From contig CAVVXH010000010.1 in assembly GCA_963752155.1 (NCBI GenBank), forward strand, positions 224,001-288,000: a stretch of DNA of 64,000 nt, read 5' to 3'. Below the pieces are notes generated by a model. It saw only the letters and a list, made by a program, of their open reading frames with translations, did not search any database and was not told the DNA's origin. This stretch comes from an uncultured Parachlamydiaceae bacterium (GTDB taxonomy: Bacteria > Chlamydiota > Chlamydiia > Chlamydiales > Parachlamydiaceae). Position numbers and translations under genes: made by a program. This document shows positions 321 to 55,167 of the stretch, piece by piece (position 1 is the stretch's first letter; each line of letters begins with the position of its first letter).

Positions 321-354
321 AAAATTGCGAAAATTGTAGCTCATCATTCCGATG
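321..354 (+). repeat. Left fragment of dispersed repeat family R (AAATTGCGCAAATTGTAGCTCATCATTCCGATG)
   Basis: Matches copies at 13036, 27594 and 29020; an inverted copy lies at 1176-1240. Confidence 0.8.
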
Positions 355-450
355 CATACGCACCAGGATAAGGATAAGGATAAGGATAAGGATAAGGAAT
401 AAGAAAATTGAAATTTTATTTCCTTATCCTGAATCCTGATGCGTATGCAT
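352..450. repeat. Palindromic element with (GGATAA)n arm
   Basis: ATGCATACGCACCAGGAT...ATCCTGATGCGTATGCAT inverted ends enclosing about 5 GGATAA units and a TTATCC. Confidence 0.8.
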
Positions 451-632
451 TTCGAGTATACAGCTTGACACGTTCTGTTGCTACTGTGGATCAACGGTAA
501 AAACGATAAAAACGATAAAAACGATAAGAACGATAGAAACGATAAGAACGATAAGAACGATAGAAACGATAAGAACGATAGAAACGATAAGAACAATAAA
601 AACGATAAGAACGATAAAAAACTATAAAAACG

Positions 633-812
633 ATGGAAGAAGTCTGGTTGTAGGAAAAACGGTAATCGTGGAATTAAAATGTTGTAAAAGTTTGGTTCGC
701 GAACATCAGGCGCAATTATTCAACTATTTAAAAGTTCTCAACTTTAAATTGGTTTGTTAGTAAATTTCCGGCATAGGAAATTACTGCAAAGCAATGAGGA
801 CTCGACTAATCT
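633..812 (+). pseudogene. Internally deleted GxxExxY-family gene
   Basis: ATGGAAGAAG is joined directly to TCTGGTTGTAGGAAAAAC...; closely matches the start and 3' half of 52674-53099, with about 200 bp missing plus small indels. Confidence 0.85.
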
Positions 813-945
813 AATCTCCTTTCTTCAAATAAAATTGAGAATTGTGATAGCGCGCTTTTCCACCCTTTTATTGGCATTACTGTCCACTTTTCTGATAATC
901 CCGCAACAGCAAGAAAAAGCAGTTTAAAAAGGGAAATCTGTGAGG
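806..945 (-). pseudogene. C-terminal remnant resembling an IS256-family transposase
   Basis: SLFKLLFLAVAGLSEKWTVMPIKGWKSALSQFSILFEERR resembles the IS256 C-terminal pattern KLLYLA...KKWTMPI.NWK.AL.QF.I.FE.R. Confidence 0.55.
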
Positions 946-1175
946 CAGTCTCCCACACATTTTTATCGTTCTTATCGTTCTTATCGTTTTTATCGTTCTT
1001 ATCGTTCTTATCGTTTTTATCGTTCTTATCGTTCTTATCGTTCTTATCGTTTTGTTTTATCGTTCTTATCGTTCTTATCCTTCTTATCGTCTTTATCGTT
1101 GTATCGTTTGCATCGTTGATTTCGTCTACATAAAAAAACATATCCCGACAACGTCGTGAATGCGTGTTAATGTTA

Positions 1176-19668: not shown

Positions 19669-19767
19669 AAGCCTTGTTCACTTCTTCGCTCAATTATTCC
19701 TCCTCTGTGTTCTCTGTGATCTCTGTGGTAAAAAAAATCTACCACAGAGAACACAGAGGAGGAGTAA
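19669..19767. repeat. Palindromic element with 9-bp CACAGAGAW arms
   Basis: CTCTGTGTTCTCTGTGATCTCTGTGGTA...TACCACAGAGAACACAGAG; second copy at 35594-35702. Confidence 0.9.
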
Positions 19768-27561: not shown

Positions 27562-27593
27562 CCTCTAAACACTGTGTGAAATTGTAGCAACCA

Positions 27594-27682
27594 AAAAATT
27601 GCGCAAATTGTAGCTCATCATTCCGATGTTGAGTGCAGCCACGCAGCCTCCAAGTAGTCTAAACCACTGCGTAGAGTCTTAA
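27594..27682 (+). repeat. Repeat family R copy
   Basis: Near-identical to 13036-13126. Confidence 0.85.
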
Positions 27683-28959: not shown

Positions 28960-29332
28960 TATTTAGGGTATAAAGTATAGGAAAAATTAAACACAAAGAG
29001 ATCTTACATGTAAAGTATCGTAACAGCTAAGAAATTTGCGCAAACTGTAGCTCATCATTCCGATGTTGAGTGTAGCCACGAACCCTCTAAATAGTCTAAA
29101 CCACTGCGTGAAGTCGTAACAGTTAAGAAATTTGCGCAGTCTTTTGGTTATTACGATTTCACGCAGTGGTTTAGACCACATGGAGGCTACGTGGCTACAC
29201 TCAACATCGGAGTGATGAGCTACAATTTGCGCAATTTCTTAGCTGTTACGATACTTTACATGTGATCTCTTTGTGCTCTTTGTGCCTTCGTGCCTTTGTG
29301 TTTAATCTTTCCTATACTTTATACCCTAATAT
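28960..29332. repeat. ~370-bp composite palindrome: outer element with CACAAAG units enclosing two inverted family R copies
   Basis: TTAGGGTATAAAGTATAGGAAA...TTTCCTATACTTTATACCCTAA ends; arms complementary over about 160 bp. Confidence 0.9.
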
Positions 29333-34421: not shown

Positions 34422-34557
34422 GATCCTTCCGGAGTGGGTTTTTCAGGGTCGTTCAGGTTCAGTTATCCTTAAATAGTATCATTTTGTTAACGATTAGTCT
34501 AGATTTTCTTGAATTCTTTTCGTGTAATCGTGTAATCGTGTAATGACGTCTGTAATG

Positions 34558-34893
34558 AAGAACGATAAGAACGATAGGAACGATAAGAACGATAGGAACG
34601 ATAAGAACGATAAGAACGATAAAAATTATAATTGAACATTATCATGATGAACTATCTGATTAAACTGTGTAAACTAAAATTCAAATCATTTATAATAAAT
34701 TGTTGCATTTTAGTTTGCATAGTTTAATTTACACTTCCAAGAGAAACAATAAAAAAGTTTTTATCATCTTCTTATCGTTTTTATCGTTTTTATCGTTTTT
34801 ATCGTTCTTATCGTTTTTATCGTTTTTATCGTTTTTATCGTTTTTATCGTTCTTATCGTTCTTATCGTTCTTATCGTTTTTATCGTTGCATCG
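34558..34893. mobile_element. Gene-less copy of the inverted 9-bp array element
   Basis: (AACGATARG)x~7 ... (YTTATCGTT)x~14 ending ATCGTTGCATCGT; ~135 bp core with its own inverted repeat. Confidence 0.75.
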
Positions 34894-35081
34894 TGGCAAG
34901 GGGACAAAATATAAATTATCAAGCCCAAATCGAAGCTGAAGATCAACTTGAAATAGCTCCAGATTTAAAAAAAGCAATTAGTTGTTGCAACATATAAACT
35001 GTAAATGATAATATCTAAAATGCGTGATGAATAGAAAATCAAAATATTCAAGATAATATATTAAAATAATTTATTTATACT

Positions 35082-35552: not shown

Positions 35553-35593
35553 ACAAGCGGATGCTGGCTATGTTCACCTGTACACGAGAAACT

Positions 35594-35702
35594 TTATTCC
35601 TCCTCTGTGTTCTCTGTGATCTCTGTGGTAAAAAAAAATCTACCACAGAGATCACAGAGAACACAGAGGAGGAATAATTGAGCGAAGAAGTGAACAAGGC
35701 TT
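35594..35702. repeat. Second CACAGAGAW-arm palindrome, in inverted orientation
   Basis: Shares the hairpin and the 25-bp flank TTGAGCGAAGAAGTGAACAAGGCTT with 19669-19767. Confidence 0.9.
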
Positions 35703-50438: not shown

Positions 50439-50575
50439 TAGCAAGGACGACAAGGACGGCAAGGACAACAAGCAAGGACAAGCAACAAAGATATAAGATA
50501 ATACCATTTCTCGTTTATTTTATATGTCCTTGCTTGCCGTCCTTGTTGTCCTTTTCGTCCTTGCTGTCCTTGTTA
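50439..50575. repeat. Palindromic element with 9-bp CAAGGACRR arms
   Basis: CAAGGACGA CAAGGACGG CAAGGACAA ... CCGTCCTTG TTGTCCTTT TCGTCCTTG CTGTCCTTG. Confidence 0.85.
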
Positions 50576-52216
50576 GTTCTTTTCTTTAATACGATTAAGT
50601 TCTCTATAGAACGCATCAAGTTCGACATCTTCATCGTTTTCAGAAGCTGGAAATTGCTTTGAGATTAATTGTTCTCTCTTAGAATTTAGATAATTCAGAG
50701 CGTTTTTAATAGGGTCTTTTACACTATCAATTTCATTATTAACGTTCCAAGAATCACAATAAAGCTCTATGCTTCCATTAGCTAAAATATATAAATCAGT
50801 AATTTCTTTGGGTAGCCGAGTTAAAAAGCCTGGAGATTGATGAGTCCATTGATCCATCAAATCTAAGAGTTCTGCATCCAAAGCATGCAATTCCTCAATG
50901 CTGCAACCACTCTTAGAATTGGTTAATTCGACGATTTGATGCGCGATGATGCGAAATTGAGATTTAATTTCTTCTAGATGATCCTCCTTTTCAAGATAAG
51001 CACGCATTTCTGGAATTTCAGTATCAACTTCCTCAATAGAAGAATCGTTATTAAGTTTATCTTGAAAATCGGTATTTAACCAATCATTAAAACTTTCATC
51101 ATTAAAACTTTCATCATCTTCAAAAAAGGAGTCTGATTCATAGCCATCCTCTAAAATTCCCTCGTTTGAATTTTCGATCTCGCAAGCCGGAGATAGATGT
51201 TTATTTTCTAAAGACTGATTTTTTTCATAGTTCGCCATGAATTGTTGTGCTTTTTTGAAGTATTTCTGGGCTTTAATTAAATCATGATCCCTATCAGGCT
51301 GATTGCTTTCTGTAACTGCAAAAGAAGGATTTAATTGCTGAAGGACTTCTTCGGCATCAGAACGAAATTTATCAGAAAGTGCATCGGTTTCTTGGTTTAT
51401 ATTTTCGACATCTGATTGAGCAATATCTTTAAGTGTAGTAACTATATTGCAATCTAGGTACGGATTCAGGCTCTCGTGTGATGGTTTGATATTTATTTTG
51501 GGCTGAATTTGTGGGCGTTCGTACACCTGAAACATTTCAATTTTAAGTAAATTTTCTTCCGTAATTCTTTTTAAGTTAGACTCATTTTTAGAAGATAATG
51601 GATTCTTTATTTCATTTATTTGTTGTCCCATTAGATCTACTTCGATTTTAAGTAATTCTAACTTTTCTTGTTGTTGATTTGCAGATAAGTTAATGGACGC
51701 ATAAAGAGTATCAATTGCTTCTCCTTGTTTATAAGCTTCTTCTAACAAGTTTTCAACAAATTTATTTTGAAAGAATAGATCAATTTCATTTTCATTTTCT
51801 TTAGAAATTTTTAGAAATGCTGCAATCTTTTCACTAATAGCAGAGGAGGGGAAATTTTTTTGATCGATGTTTTTTGAGAAAACATAATCGATTTTGGTCA
51901 TTTTGAAAGGAATAGATTTGAGTTGTTGCCAGATAGAGTTCAGTTCATTTGTGGCCTCAGGATCGTTTTTTTTAATGAGGGCTTTAATTTTTGAGCTTAG
52001 GATGAATTGATTTTGAAGTAAATTTTCTATAACCGAAGGTAATTTCCTCGCATTGATTTGTGAAGTTGTTTGGGGGTCCGCTTCTGATGTCTGTTTTGAG
52101 TCCAGAACCAAAGCAATCTCCTTTATTTTGCGAGTTTGCACATTGTCAATTCTTATAGAAAAAAAATTTTGATATAAATTTTGGAAAAAATTTAAAGAAA
52201 AAAATGAATAGATCAT
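50573..52216 (-). CDS. Hypothetical acidic helical protein
   Basis: 547 aa ORF with GAGGT RBS; no family recognised. Confidence 0.7.
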   Translation of the reverse strand: MIYSFFSLNFFQNLYQNFFSIRIDNVQTRKIKEIALVLDSKQTSEADPQTTSQINARKLPSVIENLLQNQFILSSKIKALIKKNDPEATNELNSIWQQLKSIPFKMTKIDYVFSKNIDQKNFPSSAISEKIAAFLKISKENENEIDLFFQNKFVENLLEEAYKQGEAIDTLYASINLSANQQQEKLELLKIEVDLMGQQINEIKNPLSSKNESNLKRITEENLLKIEMFQVYERPQIQPKINIKPSHESLNPYLDCNIVTTLKDIAQSDVENINQETDALSDKFRSDAEEVLQQLNPSFAVTESNQPDRDHDLIKAQKYFKKAQQFMANYEKNQSLENKHLSPACEIENSNEGILEDGYESDSFFEDDESFNDESFNDWLNTDFQDKLNNDSSIEEVDTEIPEMRAYLEKEDHLEEIKSQFRIIAHQIVELTNSKSGCSIEELHALDAELLDLMDQWTHQSPGFLTRLPKEITDLYILANGSIELYCDSWNVNNEIDSVKDPIKNALNYLNSKREQLISKQFPASENDEDVELDAFYRELNRIKEKN

Positions 52217-52511
52217 ATAAACACCTCGATTTATTAAATTACATGTAAAAATATTTTTTTTATATTTTAATATTTTTGTTTTTTTATAGGCAATTAAATT
52301 CTATTGTACCTCTTGCGTTTTTCTATTGTCAAGTCAAAAACAGTATTTTAGTGAGAAATTAGATATTAGATAAAATAGAAATGAACTGCAATAAGAGACA
52401 TTGTTTGAATCAATGCGTATTTCTGGTATTTCTGGCAACTTCTCATATAAGTGGACGTTGCATTTTTTTGTAGATGAAACGTTCATCTGGAAATCGTTAT
52501 ATTAGATTGAG

Positions 52512-53395
52512 TATGTGGACGTAATCAACGATGCAAACGATACAACGATAAAAACGATAAAAACGATATAAACGATAAGAACGATAGGAATGATAGGAAC
52601 GATAGGAACGATACAACGATAAAAACGCTTTTCAAGATTATTTACAAAAGTCTAGACACTCCCACTCCCTACGTCACAATTTCTCATAGACTTCTTCTAG
52701 ACTAGTCGAAAAGTCCTCATTGCTCTGCAGTCTTTTCCATTCCAATTTCCTATGTCGGAAATTTACTAACAAACCGATTTGAAGTTGAGAAGCTTTTAAA
52801 TAGTTGAATAATTGTGCCTGATGTTCGCGAACCAAACTTTCACAACATTTTAATTCCACGATCACGGTTTTTCCTACAACCAGATCTGCGTGATATCGAC
52901 CGATTACTTTGCCTCTAAACATTACTTCAAAAGGTCGTTCTACTTCGACCTCTAGGCCCATCTGTCTCATCGCAATCAATAGCGCATTTTTGTAGACTTT
53001 TTCCAGAAATCCTGGCCCAAGCTCCTTCATGACCTCAAAACAACAGTTCAGAATGGTGCCCGTCAATTCATGATGAGGTAATTTTTTGTCTTCTTCCATC
53101 GTTCTTATCGTTCCTATCATTCTTATCGTTTTTATCGTTTTTATCGTTCTTATCGTTCTTATCGTTTATATCGTTTTTATCGTTTTTATCGTTCTTATCG
53201 TTCTTATCGTTCTTATCGTTTTTATCGTTTTTATCGTTTTTATCGTTCTTATCGTTCTTATCGTTCTTATCGTTTTTATCGTTTTTATCGTTTTTATCGT
53301 TCTTATCGTTCTTATCGTTTATATCGTTTTTATCGTTCCTATCGTTCTTATCGTTTATACCATTGATCTATAGTTAGTAGCAACAGTCTGAACGG
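52512..53395 (-). mobile_element. Putative element: GxxExxY gene enclosed by inverted 9-bp tandem arrays
   Basis: AACGATARR x~11 at 52527-52627 and YTTATCGTT x~29 at 53097-53360; flanks shared with 471-1132. Confidence 0.75.
52674..53099 (-). CDS. GxxExxY family protein (PD-(D/E)XK nuclease fold)
   Basis: LGPGFLEKVY, ADLVV, IVELK, HQAQLFNYLK and GLLVNF. Confidence 0.92.
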   Translation of the reverse strand: MEEDKKLPHHELTGTILNCCFEVMKELGPGFLEKVYKNALLIAMRQMGLEVEVERPFEVMFRGKVIGRYHADLVVGKTVIVELKCCESLVREHQAQLFNYLKASQLQIGLLVNFRHRKLEWKRLQSNEDFSTSLEEVYEKL

Positions 53396-53478
53396 TAGCT
53401 CACTTCACTTTTTCTAGAGCTGTCAAAGGCCTTCACCACTTCACTCCCATAATTAGAAGTTGCTATTGCTATCTCTTG

Positions 53479-55167
53479 CTATCTCTTCCTATCTCTGTTG
53501 AGAAAAATAAATGGAAACAAAACCCCAAGACAACAAAGCAAAAGAATTGGACTATTTCCAAATCGACTATAAATTGTGGGGTAATGGTATCTCGGAACTT
53601 CGACGTATAGAGCATCGGCAATCCATTGTGATTCCGGCGATGTATCTCCTAACATCGCAATGATTTGCCCAAAACTGTCGCAGGCTGTCGTAATTCCTGT
53701 ATTGCAAGCTCGAACAATAGGGACTCCATTTTCAACGCTACGCAATCTAGCAAGATCGAAATGTTGTTTAGGTAGATTGGAATTGGGGTACCATACATCG
53801 CTCGAAAGATTGACAAGCAGCTCTGCTCCGTTTTGACGGCATTCTCGCATGATATTTCCAAAGGTCTCTTCATAGCAAATAGAAACCCCAAAAGGAATAG
53901 TACTTCCATGGAAAACTGTCGCTTCGGTTCCGAAAGTTAAAGATCCTTGAATTCCATATTTTGCTGCCAGGTTGTGGAAGATTGAAAAAGGGATATATTC
54001 AGCCATCGGAAGTAAGATCCGTTTAGCATAGTGTGGAGAGGCAGCATAAACAGACTCATCTGTTGAATTGGGTTTAAAATGGATCGCTGCACTATAATGT
54101 TGTGCCTTGGCATTTTCATCTTGAATAACATTTTCTAGACCAGCGATGACTTCAGACTGAAAGATATTGGCAACGGCTTGTGCCCAGAAAGCATTATTAA
54201 CGAACCATCTATTTCCTTGATTTGAGATAGATTGACGAGCAAATGGCTCTTGTAGGGGAGGAAACTTTTGTTTAACAGATTCACCGTAAGTTGCGGTAAT
54301 CGCTTTTTCTACCTCTTCATAGGGATAGATAGGTAAATAGGTTGCAAAAGGAACGACGTATTCGGGCAAAGCAATCAGGTCAATATTCTTTTCACGATAA
54401 GGGTGTAAAATTTTAAAAATTTGAGCCCACTCGTCTATGACGTAATCGACATACTGCGATCTCGTATCAAAGACTAGAGCCTCTTCCGCTGGAAAAGCTG
54501 TTTGCACTAACAGAGTTCTATAAGGATTCGACGGTTCTTGAATGGGGTAATGAAAATGAAATATTCCAAATAGATAAGGGAATGCAGCGAGCGATATCCA
54601 TGCGACTAAGTTCTTTTTACTTTGGTAAAACCAAGCTCTTAATCCCATCATATTTACAAGAATAACCCAGAAAGAAAGTAAATAGATTCCTCCAATGGAA
54701 GCTAATTGCATTGAATAAAGATGATTGGTTAGGGCAATTCCTGCGGGATTCCAGGTATATCCTGAGAGAAAATAGAGTCGACTCCATTCAAACAAAGTCC
54801 ACAAAGAGGCTAAAGCGATCGCTTGAGAGATTTTTTGAAGTCGTTCAGGTTTAATAAAAATAGACAACACCCCCCATTGCATTCCCCATAAAATGCAAAA
54901 CAACGCATAGACAAAATAGATATAATTGAAAGGGTGATACAGTAGCCATTTAAGTTGTATCGCTTGTACCGCGAGGAACCATAGTGTCCCTATTAAAAAG
55001 CGCTGTTTTGCTGAAGTAATTTCAAGCAAGACTCTGCACATCAGTGCATAGCCGCACAGAGCTGATAGAGTGCTCAACCAAGGAATGCCGGCAGGCTGCC
55101 CATAACTCACAATGACGAAGGAAATAAAGAGCAAAAGGAGCGCTCGGATCATGCCTAATGTTGCCAA
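53479..55167 (-). CDS. lnt: Apolipoprotein N-acyltransferase
   Basis: ALPE, KRILLPMAEYIP, ICYE and RSVENG. Confidence 0.92.
   Translation of the reverse strand: MATLGMIRALLLLFISFVIVSYGQPAGIPWLSTLSALCGYALMCRVLLEITSAKQRFLIGTLWFLAVQAIQLKWLLYHPFNYIYFVYALFCILWGMQWGVLSIFIKPERLQKISQAIALASLWTLFEWSRLYFLSGYTWNPAGIALTNHLYSMQLASIGGIYLLSFWVILVNMMGLRAWFYQSKKNLVAWISLAAFPYLFGIFHFHYPIQEPSNPYRTLLVQTAFPAEEALVFDTRSQYVDYVIDEWAQIFKILHPYREKNIDLIALPEYVVPFATYLPIYPYEEVEKAITATYGESVKQKFPPLQEPFARQSISNQGNRWFVNNAFWAQAVANIFQSEVIAGLENVIQDENAKAQHYSAAIHFKPNSTDESVYAASPHYAKRILLPMAEYIPFSIFHNLAAKYGIQGSLTFGTEATVFHGSTIPFGVSICYEETFGNIMRECRQNGAELLVNLSSDVWYPNSNLPKQHFDLARLRSVENGVPIVRACNTGITTACDSFGQIIAMLGDTSPESQWIADALYVEVPRYHYPTIYSRFGNSPILLLCCLGVLFPFIFLNRDRKR

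What the first reader, a model, noticed from the sequence alone, without database searches (positions are those of the whole stretch)
471..1132. Second, decayed copy shows that gene, arrays and flanks moved as one unit
Seen: the array runs into ATGGAAGAAG and then jumps about 200 bp to the 3' half of the GxxExxY gene. Both outer flanks match 52512-52545 and 53360-53395 in inverted orientation, 52 kb away and in a different gene context. The arrays persist while the gene has decayed. Inference: the arms are cis-acting ends rather than independent microsatellites.
Basis: seen in the sequence. Interest (0 to 1): 0.75.

Follow-up and report, generated by a model that had tools for sequence, protein, structure and literature searches.

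The report
Nuclease gene framed by inverted arrays
A small nuclease gene bracketed by mirror-image runs of a 9-base repeat sits in this window as one intact, one broken and one gene-less copy, and looks like a so far undescribed kind of selfish hairpin DNA element that also turns up around related genes in other bacterial phyla.

Summary
Copy A (475-1132) matches copy B (52512-53386, opposite strand) and nothing beyond. Both run flank, (AACGATARR)n array, ATG of a GxxExxY/PDDEXK_3 nuclease gene, inverted array, flank. Copy A lacks 205 bp after ATGGAAGAAG. A third, gene-less inverted array pair lies at 34558-34887.

The same array-to-ATG architecture recurs in other chlamydial genome bins, with the gene intact, frameshifted or internally deleted. 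Eleven of 18 chlamydial loci carry inverted array pairs.

GxxExxY genes found by protein search in other phyla are also bracketed by short-period, mostly 9-bp, inverted arms of different sequence. Seven of 12 genes score at least 34 in a flank inverted-repeat test, against 1 of 432 control ORFs, and that one control is a REP-flanked IS200-like transposase. One such hairpin occurs at 79 or more places on two Gemmatirosa replicons that hold three gene copies.

Best reading: a hairpin ("foldback"/REPIN-like) selfish element family whose only gene is a minimal PD-(D/E)XK nuclease. No target duplication or sharp ends were found, and the mechanism is inferred. I found no prior description in seven literature searches.

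The parts
449..492 (+). Copy A, 5' outer flank of the unit (TTCGAGTATACAGC...CTGTTGCTACTGTGGATCAACGG)
   Evidence: 39/44 identical to the L056 copy in a different gene context. Only the 11-nt core and GATCAAYGG are shared with copy B.
493..634 (+). Copy A, 5' arm: 15.7 units of AACGATARR
   Evidence: TRF; pattern scan.
633..805 (+). Copy A, decayed GxxExxY gene. The start ATGGAAGAAG (633-642) is joined to the 3' half, with 205 bp missing, a frameshift, and further 1-bp and 12-bp deletions.
   Evidence: Alignment with copy B; 152/160 identity in the retained part; own-HMM hit 1.2e-14 on ORF 440-757.
806..962 (+). Copy A, interior 3' of the gene remnant. Partly alignable to B's 3' untranslated stretch, with about 95 extra bases.
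   Evidence: alignment.
963..1108 (-). Copy A, 3' arm: 16.9 inverted units (CTTATCGTT on the + strand)
   Evidence: TRF; arms 500-593/960-1053 are 93% complementary.
1109..1175 (+). Copy A, 3' outer flank. 1093-1132 is shared with B (38/40); 1105-1175 is shared with L056 (61/70).
52512..52526 (-). Copy B, 3' outer flank
52527..52627 (+). Copy B, 3' arm (11.4 units; inverted relative to the gene's sense)
   Evidence: TRF.
52674..53099 (-). Copy B, intact GxxExxY / PD-(D/E)XK nuclease gene, 141 aa. G30-x-x-E33-x-x-Y36, D72 and E82-x-K84 are present.
   Evidence: TIGR04256 1e-40; PF13366 1.2e-39; nearly invariant columns in a 114-sequence alignment; AF2 pLDDT 89.8; PD-(D/E)XK nuclease neighbours by Foldseek.
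53098..53356 (-). Copy B, 5' arm: 28.7 units with a 45-bp higher-order period. The last unit contains the ATG.
   Evidence: TRF; sequence.
53357..53386 (-). Copy B, 5' outer flank
34558..34631 (+). Copy C, + arm (about 7-8 units)
34632..34756 (.). Copy C, AT-rich spacer with its own internal hairpin. No detectable gene remnant.
   Evidence: Local alignment to the B and A interiors is no better than shuffles (26/300 and worse); fold.
34757..34894 (-). Copy C, inverted arm (14.3 units)
   Evidence: The whole of 34540-34900 folds as a hairpin: -79 kcal/mol, z -13.2.

Best explanation
The window holds three members of one family of hairpin-shaped (foldback-type) selfish elements of environmental Chlamydiota. 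The full unit is a short outer flank, an array of the 9-bp unit AACGATARR, a 141-aa GxxExxY (PDDEXK_3) nuclease gene whose ATG lies inside the last repeat unit, the same array inverted, and a short outer flank.

Copy B (52512-53386) is intact. Copy A (449/475-1132/1175) is an internal-deletion derivative that keeps both arms. Copy C (34558-34894) is a gene-less arm pair.

Shown:
- Gene and arms are inherited and duplicated together, in different contexts and genomes.
- Derivatives lose the interior and keep the arms.
- Arm lengths vary freely.
- The same design (a GxxExxY gene inside inverted arms of about 9-bp period, plus gene-less hairpins of the same unit) recurs with other unit sequences in other phyla.

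Inferred:
- The nuclease, probably acting as a dimer, recognises or cuts its cognate arms.
- The breaks are repaired by copying from another arm-homologous copy, or the unit is excised and re-inserted. Either would spread the unit and its gene-less derivatives, often into the centres of other palindromes.
- In read-through transcripts the arms probably also pair and keep translation of the nuclease low. The genes are co-oriented with their neighbours and have no recognisable promoter of their own.
For: 1. Unit structure and A-B homology limits.

2. Other chlamydial genomes carry the same array-to-ATG junction.
- L065 (Simkaniaceae MAG) has an intact gene at 70.7% aa identity.
- L035 has a frameshifted gene with both arms.
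- L056 keeps codons 1-46 and both arms. Its outer flanks are 87-89% identical to copy A's, but its flanking ORFs match nothing in the window.

3. Inverted arm pairs occur in 11 of 18 chlamydial loci, and 4 more loci are cut by contig ends. L003, L005 and L061 keep an ATG-start remnant next to one arm.

4. Of 28 N-terminally over-called close homologues, 20 begin with the array-encoded peptide ND.TI[RK]T. Most of the 120 listed homologues lie on contigs of about 0.5-3 kb, as expected if repeats break assemblies.

5. Generality. In the flank inverted-repeat test, 7 of 12 GxxExxY genes score at least 34 (winB 125, L091 64, L035 51, L085 45, L089 41, L065 38, L090 36), against 1 of 432 control ORFs. 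That control is a Y1_Tnp gene flanked by REPs. Taking only the 9 loci found by protein search, which are unbiased with respect to arms, 4 of 9 score at least 34. TRF finds period-9 arrays next to the gene in L085, L086, L087, L088 and L091, and period 8 in L089.

6. Gene-less hairpin populations. The Gemmatirosa (CGCAGAGGN)3 hairpin has at least 40 and at least 39 places on two replicons, against 3 gene places. The Prevotella unit has 5 places.

7. The protein is a compact PD-(D/E)XK nuclease with its catalytic residues in place. Of the 150 family representatives, 21 are tandem two-domain forms, which suits a dimeric enzyme.

8. The gene is co-oriented with both neighbours in 7 of 7 annotated cases. 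No promoter-like site above the shuffle expectation was found.

9. Nesting. Copy A and an AGGATA hairpin sit between inverted arms of another repeat family. The L003 and L005 elements sit inside longer palindromes.
Against: - No target-site duplication was seen at any copy (inspection).
- Ends are not sharp or uniform. Homology decays outward, and A-B and A-L056 end at different points.
- Copy C and several MAG hairpins show no gene remnant, so they need not be deletion derivatives.
- The same 9-mer array lies in frame within a 601-aa coding sequence (L060), so not every array is an element arm.
- Five of 12 GxxExxY genes score within the control range in the flank test (L083 22, L088 18, L086 15, L087 14, L084 13). 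L084 is flanked by direct, not inverted, repeats.
- The non-chlamydial sample is small: 9 loci from 8 plasmid or chromid records. The chlamydial loci were found through the array itself, which is an ascertainment bias.
- No PD-(D/E)XK protein of this size is known to move DNA on its own (my knowledge, not a call).
- Foldseek places the protein nearest to lambda-exonuclease and Cas4-type enzymes, with only TM about 0.5. That says nothing on substrate.
- No experiment on this family was found in print.
Confidence: 0.6

Rival explanations
1. A REPIN/RAYT-like arrangement. The hairpins are a long-lived population of repeats, possibly useful to the host as terminators or mRNA stabilisers. The GxxExxY nuclease is their dedicated, largely vertically inherited caretaker. 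It happens to sit between its substrates and does not itself travel as part of a transposon.
For: - The gene is flanked by inverted repeats exactly as in the RAYT positive control picked up by the same test.
- There are at least 79 gene-less hairpins against 3 genes in Gemmatirosa.
- In L091 the gene lies between two complete hairpins rather than inside one.
- Gene-less hairpins of a second unit type (CACAGAGAN) occur in the window without any cognate gene.
Against: - Decayed gene copies that keep both arms (A, L035, L056, L003, L005, L061) show that the gene itself is duplicated along with the arms and then lost. That is the autonomous/non-autonomous pattern rather than a single domesticated gene.
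- The array-to-ATG junction is part of the repeated unit.
Confidence: 0.2
2. The arms act only at the RNA level. A selfish or passenger ORF has inserted into operons. The inverted arms pair in read-through transcripts to sequester its start codon or to direct RNase III processing, as in rRNA intervening sequences. They play no part as DNA ends.
For: - The gene is co-oriented with both neighbours in 7 of 7 cases and sits in tight intergenic gaps, for example between fabD and fabG.
- The array runs into the ATG, with no promoter-like site above chance.
- The arms would enclose the whole ORF in a long stem.
Against: - An RNA stem needs complementarity, not a conserved unit. Yet the AACGATAAG unit is kept while the protein diverges to 70.7% identity.
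- The approximately 9-bp period is kept across phyla.
- Gene-less hairpins are amplified to dozens of copies.
- No Rfam family matches.
- This reading can be true in addition to the best explanation.
Confidence: 0.12
3. Independent microsatellites that arose by slippage near a duplicated gene, or a plain segmental duplication.
For: - Array lengths differ between arms and copies (7 to 29 units), so slippage certainly acts.
- The same array occurs in a coding sequence.
Against: - Homology stops within about 25 bp outside the arrays.
- The pattern scores 66 matches against 0 in shuffles, all in inverted pairs.
- The architecture is conserved in other genomes and phyla.
Confidence: 0.02

Closest known systems
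REP/REPIN-RAYT systems (REPtrons)
   Same: A small nuclease-type gene is bracketed by inverted copies of a short repeat, with many gene-less inverted doublets of the same repeat dispersed in the genome. My flank test picked up a genuine example: L032, Y1_Tnp 9e-20, score 88. Background comes from the abstracts listed (PMC5581495, PMC8266576, PMC3479197).
   Different: The enzyme is a PD-(D/E)XK fold (PF13366), not an HUH/Y1 transposase. The arms are tandem arrays of a 9-bp unit, up to 29 units long, rather than single 20-40-bp palindromes. The gene decays together with the arms in several copies, whereas RAYTs are described as single-copy.
MITEs and their autonomous TIR transposons
   Same: One copy has an intact gene, and internal-deletion or gene-less derivatives keep both inverted ends. 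Copies sit in intergenic gaps.
   Different: No DDE or other known transposase. No target-site duplication found. Ends are not sharply defined, and the arms are long arrays of variable length.
Eukaryotic Foldback (FB) elements (recalled from general knowledge, no call)
   Same: Long terminal inverted repeats are built from short tandem subrepeats. Their number differs between copies and between the two arms. Many copies lack any coding interior.
   Different: FB elements are eukaryotic and unrelated in sequence, their coding partners differ, and no prokaryotic counterpart is known to me. A search for 'foldback' + 'terminal inverted repeats' + 'subrepeats' + 'bacteria' found 0 papers.
Insertion sequences that target REP hairpins (ISPpu9: abstract in the listing; IS1397: recalled)
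   Same: Elements are found nested in the centre of other palindromes, as with copy A inside the 'Y' repeat arms and L003/L005 inside longer palindromes.
   Different: Those are ordinary ISs with transposases and defined ends. Here the nesting is an observation without a demonstrated targeting step.
PD-(D/E)XK nucleases of known function: lambda exonuclease, Cas4, Hjc, and free-standing or intron homing endonucleases of this fold (the last recalled)
   Same: Same catalytic fold and motif (D...ExK). Foldseek top hits are 3syy, 4ic1 and 1avq (E about 1e-4), with Hjc 2wcw lower.
   Different: TM is only about 0.5, there is no sequence-level match to any solved structure, and no substrate inference is possible.

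Membership tests
GxxExxY protein (TIGR04256) / PDDEXK_3 (PF13366) | Profile match above the curated cut-off | tested here: met
   TIGR04256 138.7 bits against a cut-off of 35. PF13366 135.7 bits against a cut-off of 22.
GxxExxY protein (TIGR04256) / PDDEXK_3 (PF13366) | GxxExxY motif and PD-(D/E)XK catalytic residues | tested here: met
   G30, E33, Y36, D72, E82 and K84 are nearly invariant in 114 sequences and present in copy B. Copy A lacks the part holding E33 and D72.
REP-RAYT (REPtron) | Gene encodes an HUH/Y1 (IS200-like) transposase | tested here: not met
   Pfam gives only PF13366. The true RAYT in L032 gives PF01797.
REP-RAYT (REPtron) | Gene flanked by inverted copies of the genome's dispersed palindromic repeat, with gene-less doublets elsewhere | tested here: met
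   Window copies A-C. Flank test 7/12 against 1/432. Gemmatirosa hairpin at 79 or more places.
TIR transposon / MITE | Terminal inverted repeats | tested here: met
   Arms 93% complementary over 94 nt in A. The terminal GATCAACG...CGTTGATY is shared by A, B, L056 and L035.
TIR transposon / MITE | Target-site duplication at defined ends | tested here: not met
   Inspection of the junctions of A, B, L003, L005, L085, L089 and L090 found no direct repeat. The ends differ between pairs of copies.
TIR transposon / MITE | Recognised transposase in the autonomous copy | tested here: not met
   The only ORF with a family match is the PD-(D/E)XK nuclease.
Foldback-type element | Long inverted arms made of tandem subrepeats, variable between arms and copies | tested here: met
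   15.7/16.9, 28.7/11.4 and 7.2/14.3 units in A, B and C.
Homing endonuclease gene | Cleavage of the gene-less allele and copying into it | not testable with these tools
   No pair of filled and empty orthologous sites was available, and no biochemistry.
Known RNA family (Rfam) | Covariance-model match at gathering score | tested here: not met
   0 matches in the whole window.
Anti-phage defence system (PADLOC) | Match to a defence-system protein model | tested here: not met
   0 families.

The most novel reading that the evidence does not exclude
GxxExxY/PF13366 proteins are a huge family of unknown function (14,144 clusters at 50% identity with E<=1e-3). On this reading they are the dedicated nucleases of a phylum-spanning class of hairpin repeats with arms of about 9-bp period. 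That would be a second, independent REPIN-RAYT-type or foldback-type selfish system, built on a minimal PD-(D/E)XK enzyme instead of an HUH transposase. Each protein clade would be matched to its own repeat unit: a CGAT/CGGAT core with the GFLE clade, and CAGAG-type cores in 3 of the 5 GLLES-clade members.
Probability: 0.4. Interest if true: 0.85.

Novelty: new variant of a known kind. Interest (0 to 1): 0.75.

Why it matters
- It would give a first functional context to PDDEXK_3/GxxExxY, one of the large families still listed as 'unknown' (Steczkiewicz et al. 2012, table row seen).
- It would explain a class of short-period palindromic repeats that break metagenome assemblies of Chlamydiota and other phyla.
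- It would add a nuclease-based counterpart to the HUH-based REP/RAYT systems.
- It is directly testable. The cognate pairs of protein and 9-mer arm are defined by sequence, and tractable hosts (Bacteroides, Sphingomonas, Prevotella) carry compact examples in short intergenic gaps.

Tried and rejected
- **Gene remnant in copy C's spacer:** not better than shuffles.
- **Promoter and terminator scan of 52300-53600:** 5 promoter-like sites against 4.7 expected and no terminator. Nothing lies upstream of the 5' array.
- **Rfam over the whole window:** nothing. PADLOC: nothing. PHROGs: one weak 'endonuclease' hit, E 0.008. PDB by sequence: nothing meaningful.
- **Phage collection:** only a weak partial match in one haloarchaeal virus (the same virus under two accessions), not followed up.
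- **Genome-contig scan:** The genome-wide copy count therefore stayed unchecked, and no second scan was allowed. The 64 non-chlamydial loci of that scan (mostly 3-7 units, none with a GxxExxY gene) were not analysed further, except as a source of control ORFs.
- **My own array-inventory script:** too strict, finding only the three long pairs, so it was not used.
- **Tripeptide periodicity in terminal extensions of the 150 representatives:** only 3 cases, too few to count as support.
- **Target-site duplications:** looked for by eye at seven elements, none found.
- **DnaA-box reading of the 9-mer:** considered and dropped. Only copy A's flank has TGTGGATCA.
- **CRISPR-like reading:** rejected, because the arrays have no unique spacers.
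- **Literature:** 'GxxExxY' gave 3 papers, 2 listed. I saw a passage of one and only the listing of the other. 'PDDEXK_3' and 'PF13366' led to a table row that says 'Unknown'. 'Parachlamydiaceae' + 'miniature inverted-repeat' gave 0. Chlamydiae + palindromic + repetitive elements + intergenic gave 3 irrelevant papers. The foldback search gave 0. REPIN + RAYT + palindromic + nuclease gave 11 papers, abstracts only seen, none on this family. Papers outside the held library and supplementary files were not searched.
Full report
**1. The observation**

The window carries the pattern AACGATARRAACGAT 66 times, against none in 100 dinucleotide-preserving shuffles. All matches lie at three places. TRF describes the arrays as follows:

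| Copy | First arm | Second arm (opposite sense) |
|---|---|---|
| A | 493-634, 15.7 units | 963-1108, 16.9 units |
| B | 53098-53356, 28.7 units, with a 45-bp higher-order period | 52527-52627, 11.4 units |
| C | 34558-34622, 7.2 units | 34757-34887, 14.3 units |

At each place the two arrays are inverted relative to each other.

In copy B the long array runs directly into an ATG at 53099, on the minus strand. The last repeat unit contains the start codon. The ORF that follows is 141 aa long and ends at 52674. It matches TIGR04256 'GxxExxY protein' (1e-40) and Pfam PF13366 PDDEXK_3 (1.2e-39).

In copy A the array likewise runs into ATGGAAGAAG (633-642). The next base then corresponds to a point 205 bp further into the gene, which breaks the frame. 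The retained part is 95.0% identical to B (152/160) and carries two further small deletions.

BLASTN restricts A-B homology to A 475-1132 and B 52512-53386. Homology to C is restricted to the arrays.

The three copies have unrelated neighbours:
- A lies between an unknown ORF and a SNF2 helicase.
- B lies between lnt and a 547-aa ORF.
- C lies between a Trp/Tyr permease and a 156-aa ORF.

**2. The same unit in other genomes**

Eighteen loci come from records titled as Chlamydiota. The window's own genome was not among them, so its total copy number remains unknown.

Three of the 82 loci, all chlamydial, encode the protein next to the array:
- L065 (Simkaniaceae MAG) has an intact gene at 70.7% identity. 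The array ends ...GGAAGG before ATGGAAGAAG, and only about two inverted units follow the stop.
- L035 has a frameshifted gene between a degenerate 5' array that runs into ATG and an inverted 3' array.
- L056 keeps codons 1-46 (130/138 identical to B) and both arms.

L056's outer flanks match copy A beyond the point where A and B diverge: 39/44 on the 5' side and 61/70 on the 3' side. Yet none of its flanking ORFs matches anything in the window. The repeated unit therefore includes 25-65 bp outside the arrays in that sub-lineage.

A relaxed arm detector applied to the 18 chlamydial loci gave the following:

| Arrangement | Loci | Count |
|---|---|---|
| Pair, + arm then - arm | L003, L005, L007, L012, L035, L045, L056, L061, L066 | 9 |
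| Pair, - arm then + arm | L016, L033 | 2 |
| Cut by a contig end | L022, L031, L040, L074 | 4 |
| Single arm | L053 | 1 |
| Array inside a coding sequence | L060 | 1 |
| + arm split by an N-run, no inverted arm detected (two inverted units after the stop seen by eye) | L065 | 1 |

L003, L005 and L061 show a remnant of the gene start abutting one arm.

Among the 120 closest proteins in the large protein set, most come from contigs of roughly 0.5-3 kb. Of the 28 that were called with at least five extra N-terminal residues, 20 begin with the peptide that the array encodes in the gene's frame (ND.TI[RK]T). Most of the remaining eight carry variants of it. The array-to-ATG junction is therefore a conserved part of the gene's locus and is not peculiar to this window.

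**3. A wider pattern**

TBLASTN against the plasmid/chromid collection found GxxExxY genes in 8 records at 10 places, from seven phyla. I examined 9 of the 10 places.

| Locus | Organism | What flanks the gene |
|---|---|---|
| L085 | Bacteroides finegoldii | Inverted (CACAGAGGA)3 arms, filling the gap between radA and the next gene |
| L090 | Bernardetia | Inverted CACAGAGAN arms |
| L089 | Sphingomonas | Gene between fabD and fabG, inside inverted (CGCGAAGR)3 arms that run straight into its ATG |
| L086 | Prevotella | (ACAAATCGR)3 twelve bases before the ATG, an inverted remnant after the stop, then three tandem gene-less hairpins of the same unit |
| L091 | Gemmatirosa | Frameshifted gene between two complete (CGCAGAGGN)3 hairpins |
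| L088 | Gemmatirosa | A (CGCGGATNN)3 hairpin just downstream |
| L087 | Persicobacter | AATCC-core short-period arrays on both sides |
| L083 | Treponema | Only a 16-nt inverted repeat (11-nt exact core) |
| L084 | Fusobacteria | Direct repeats of about 45 bp |

TRF reports period 9 next to the gene in five of the nine loci and period 8 in one.

I then ran a uniform test: the best local alignment of the 150 bp upstream against the reverse complement of the 150 bp downstream. Results for the 12 GxxExxY genes were:
- At least 34: winB 125, L091 64, L035 51, L085 45, L089 41, L065 38, L090 36.
- Below 34: L083 22, L088 18, L086 15, L087 14, L084 13.

Among 432 other ORFs of at least 100 aa from the same loci, the window and L001-L082, one scored at least 34 (mean 17.1, sd 4.5). 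ORFs without full flanks or with N were dropped, as were those at the elements themselves. That single outlier, with score 88, is an IS200-like Y1 transposase flanked by REP palindromes. It is a genuine REP-RAYT locus and serves as an unplanned positive control.

Counting only the nine loci found by protein similarity, which avoids the ascertainment bias of the array scan, four score at least 34.

Gene-less hairpins can be numerous. The 89-nt Gemmatirosa hairpin has at least 40 and at least 39 places on two replicons (the per-record limit was reached). The gene has three places on one of these replicons and none detected on the other. The Prevotella unit has five places.

The window itself holds two gene-less hairpins of the CACAGAGAN type, at about 19690-19760 and 35590-35680. 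This is the unit class that brackets the Bacteroides and Bernardetia genes.

**4. The protein**

A 114-sequence alignment shows L27, G28, G30, F31, E33, Y36, D72, E82, K84, H93, Q96 and Y100 to be nearly invariant. The AlphaFold2 model is confident (pLDDT 89.8), with the alpha-alpha-beta-beta-beta-beta-alpha-beta order of a PD-(D/E)XK core.

Foldseek against the PDB gives alkaline and lambda exonucleases and Cas4 SSO0001 first (E about 1e-4, TM about 0.5). The Hjc resolvase is lower, but with the smallest rmsd. This confirms the fold and says nothing about substrate.

The family is very large: 14,144 50%-identity clusters at E<=1e-3. Twenty-one of the 150 best representatives are tandem two-domain proteins. 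In at least one I looked at (P0122), the first domain has lost the ExK motif. I take this as a hint that the working unit is a dimer. The direct homodimer prediction could not be run.

The only statement of function I found in print is 'Unknown', with a note of multiple horizontal transfers. It is a table row of Steczkiewicz et al. 2012 (PMC3424549), of which I saw one passage.

**5. How it most likely works**

Shown:
- Gene and arms are copied together.
- Derivatives lose the interior and keep the arms.
- Arm length is free to vary.
- The unit sequence is kept while the protein diverges.
- Different protein clades carry different units. The five proteins with a G-x-G-F-L/Q-E motif go with CGAT/CGGAT-core units. 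The five with G-x-G-L-L-E-S go with CAGAG, CGAAG or CAAATC units. This is a small sample and only suggestive.
- The gene is co-oriented with both neighbours in 7 of 7 annotated cases.
- Elements are often nested inside other palindromes. Copy A and an (AGGATA)6 hairpin lie between inverted arms of a further repeat family, at 322-354 and about 1170-1200. That family also occurs as a full palindrome at 29033-29252 and as a solo arm at 27581-27682. In L003 and L005 the palindrome continues about 60 bp beyond the arrays.

Inferred: the nuclease recognises its own arms, and the breaks it makes are repaired from another copy that shares the arms. The arrays offer homology in any register, which would also explain the variable unit numbers. 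Alternatively the unit is excised and re-inserted. Either route would spread both full and gene-less units.

In read-through transcripts the arms would enclose the ORF and cover its start codon, so expression would stay low. I put 0.6 on this overall reading: about 0.8 on 'one heritable selfish unit' and well below that on the specific enzymatic steps.

The main rival (0.2) is a REPIN-RAYT-like relationship in which the gene is a resident caretaker of a hairpin population and is not itself a passenger.

**6. What argues against**

- No target-site duplication was found.
- Endpoints differ between pairs of copies.
- Copy C's spacer has no detectable gene remnant.
- Five of 12 genes fall in the control range of the flank test.
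- L084 has direct repeats.
- The same array encodes an (NDK)n linker inside a 601-aa ORF in L060.
- The non-chlamydial sample is small.
- There is no experiment on any family member.

**7. Novelty**

The protein family is known but uncharacterised. Hairpin repeats with an associated nuclease gene are known as a kind (REP/RAYT), and so are foldback-type arms, in eukaryotes.

The combination seen here is a minimal PD-(D/E)XK gene inside inverted tandem arrays of about 9-bp period, with deletion derivatives and gene-less hairpins, across phyla. I found no description of it in seven literature searches. Those searches cover only the held open-access library. I therefore file it as a new variant of a known kind, with a substantial chance that it marks a distinct class.

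Noticed in passing
window 19688-19762 and 35588-35682: Two copies, in opposite orientation, of a perfect hairpin built from three 9-mers (CTCTGTGNT ... ANCACAGAG), with about 30 bp of shared flank. There is no gene inside. The unit is of the same type as the arms that bracket the GxxExxY genes of Bacteroides finegoldii (L085) and Bernardetia (L090), but its polarity relative to the loop is reversed.
   Followed up: partly
window 355-450: A hairpin of (AGGATA)6 against CCTTATCC..., enclosed by a further inverted pair GCATACGCAC/GCGTATGC, directly beside copy A. CAGGAT-type repeats also flank the array elements of L003, L005 and L074.
   Followed up: partly
window 322-354 and 1170-1200; 27581-27682; 29033-29252: Another repeat family (AAATTGCGCAAATTGTAGCTCATCATTCCGATG...). 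It occurs as a full 220-bp palindrome at 29033-29252 and as a solo arm at 27581-27682. Two inverted arm fragments enclose the AGGATA hairpin plus copy A, which gives nested palindromes.
   Followed up: partly
window 50442-50574: An inverted pair of (CAAGGACRA)n 9-mer arrays with a 66-bp spacer, abutting the 3' end of the 547-aa ORF 50573-52216.
   Followed up: no
window 53466-53496 and 34520-34544: Further short arrays next to the elements: (TTGCTATCTC)3 overlapping the 3' end of lnt beside copy B, and (TCGTGTAA)3 just outside copy C's + arm.
   Followed up: no
L060 3689-5494 (and probably L022 1-60): The same AACGATAAG array lies in frame within a 601-aa ORF, encoding (NDK)n followed by (DEK)n. 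Five of the six reading frames of the unit are open, so such arrays can be tolerated in coding sequence.
   Followed up: partly
L032 1780-2620: A textbook REP-RAYT locus in an uncultured Bacteroides MAG: an IS200-like Y1 transposase gene between arrays of GCCCTGAAAGGGC/CCCAGGGC palindromes. It was found only because it was the single outlier among the controls.
   Followed up: yes
proteins P0047, P0056, P0073 and others: In several close homologues the codon at the array-gene junction is ATA (I) rather than ATG, and the called protein starts further upstream. In those genomes the array-encoded peptide may really be translated.
   Followed up: no
proteins P0122-P0251: Twenty-one of the 150 family representatives are tandem two-domain GxxExxY proteins. 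In P0122 the first domain lacks the ExK motif.
   Followed up: partly
L089 1480-1945: In Sphingomonas parapaucimobilis the GxxExxY element sits between fabD and fabG of the fatty-acid synthesis operon. Its 3' arm ends about 20 bp before fabG's ribosome-binding site.
   Followed up: partly
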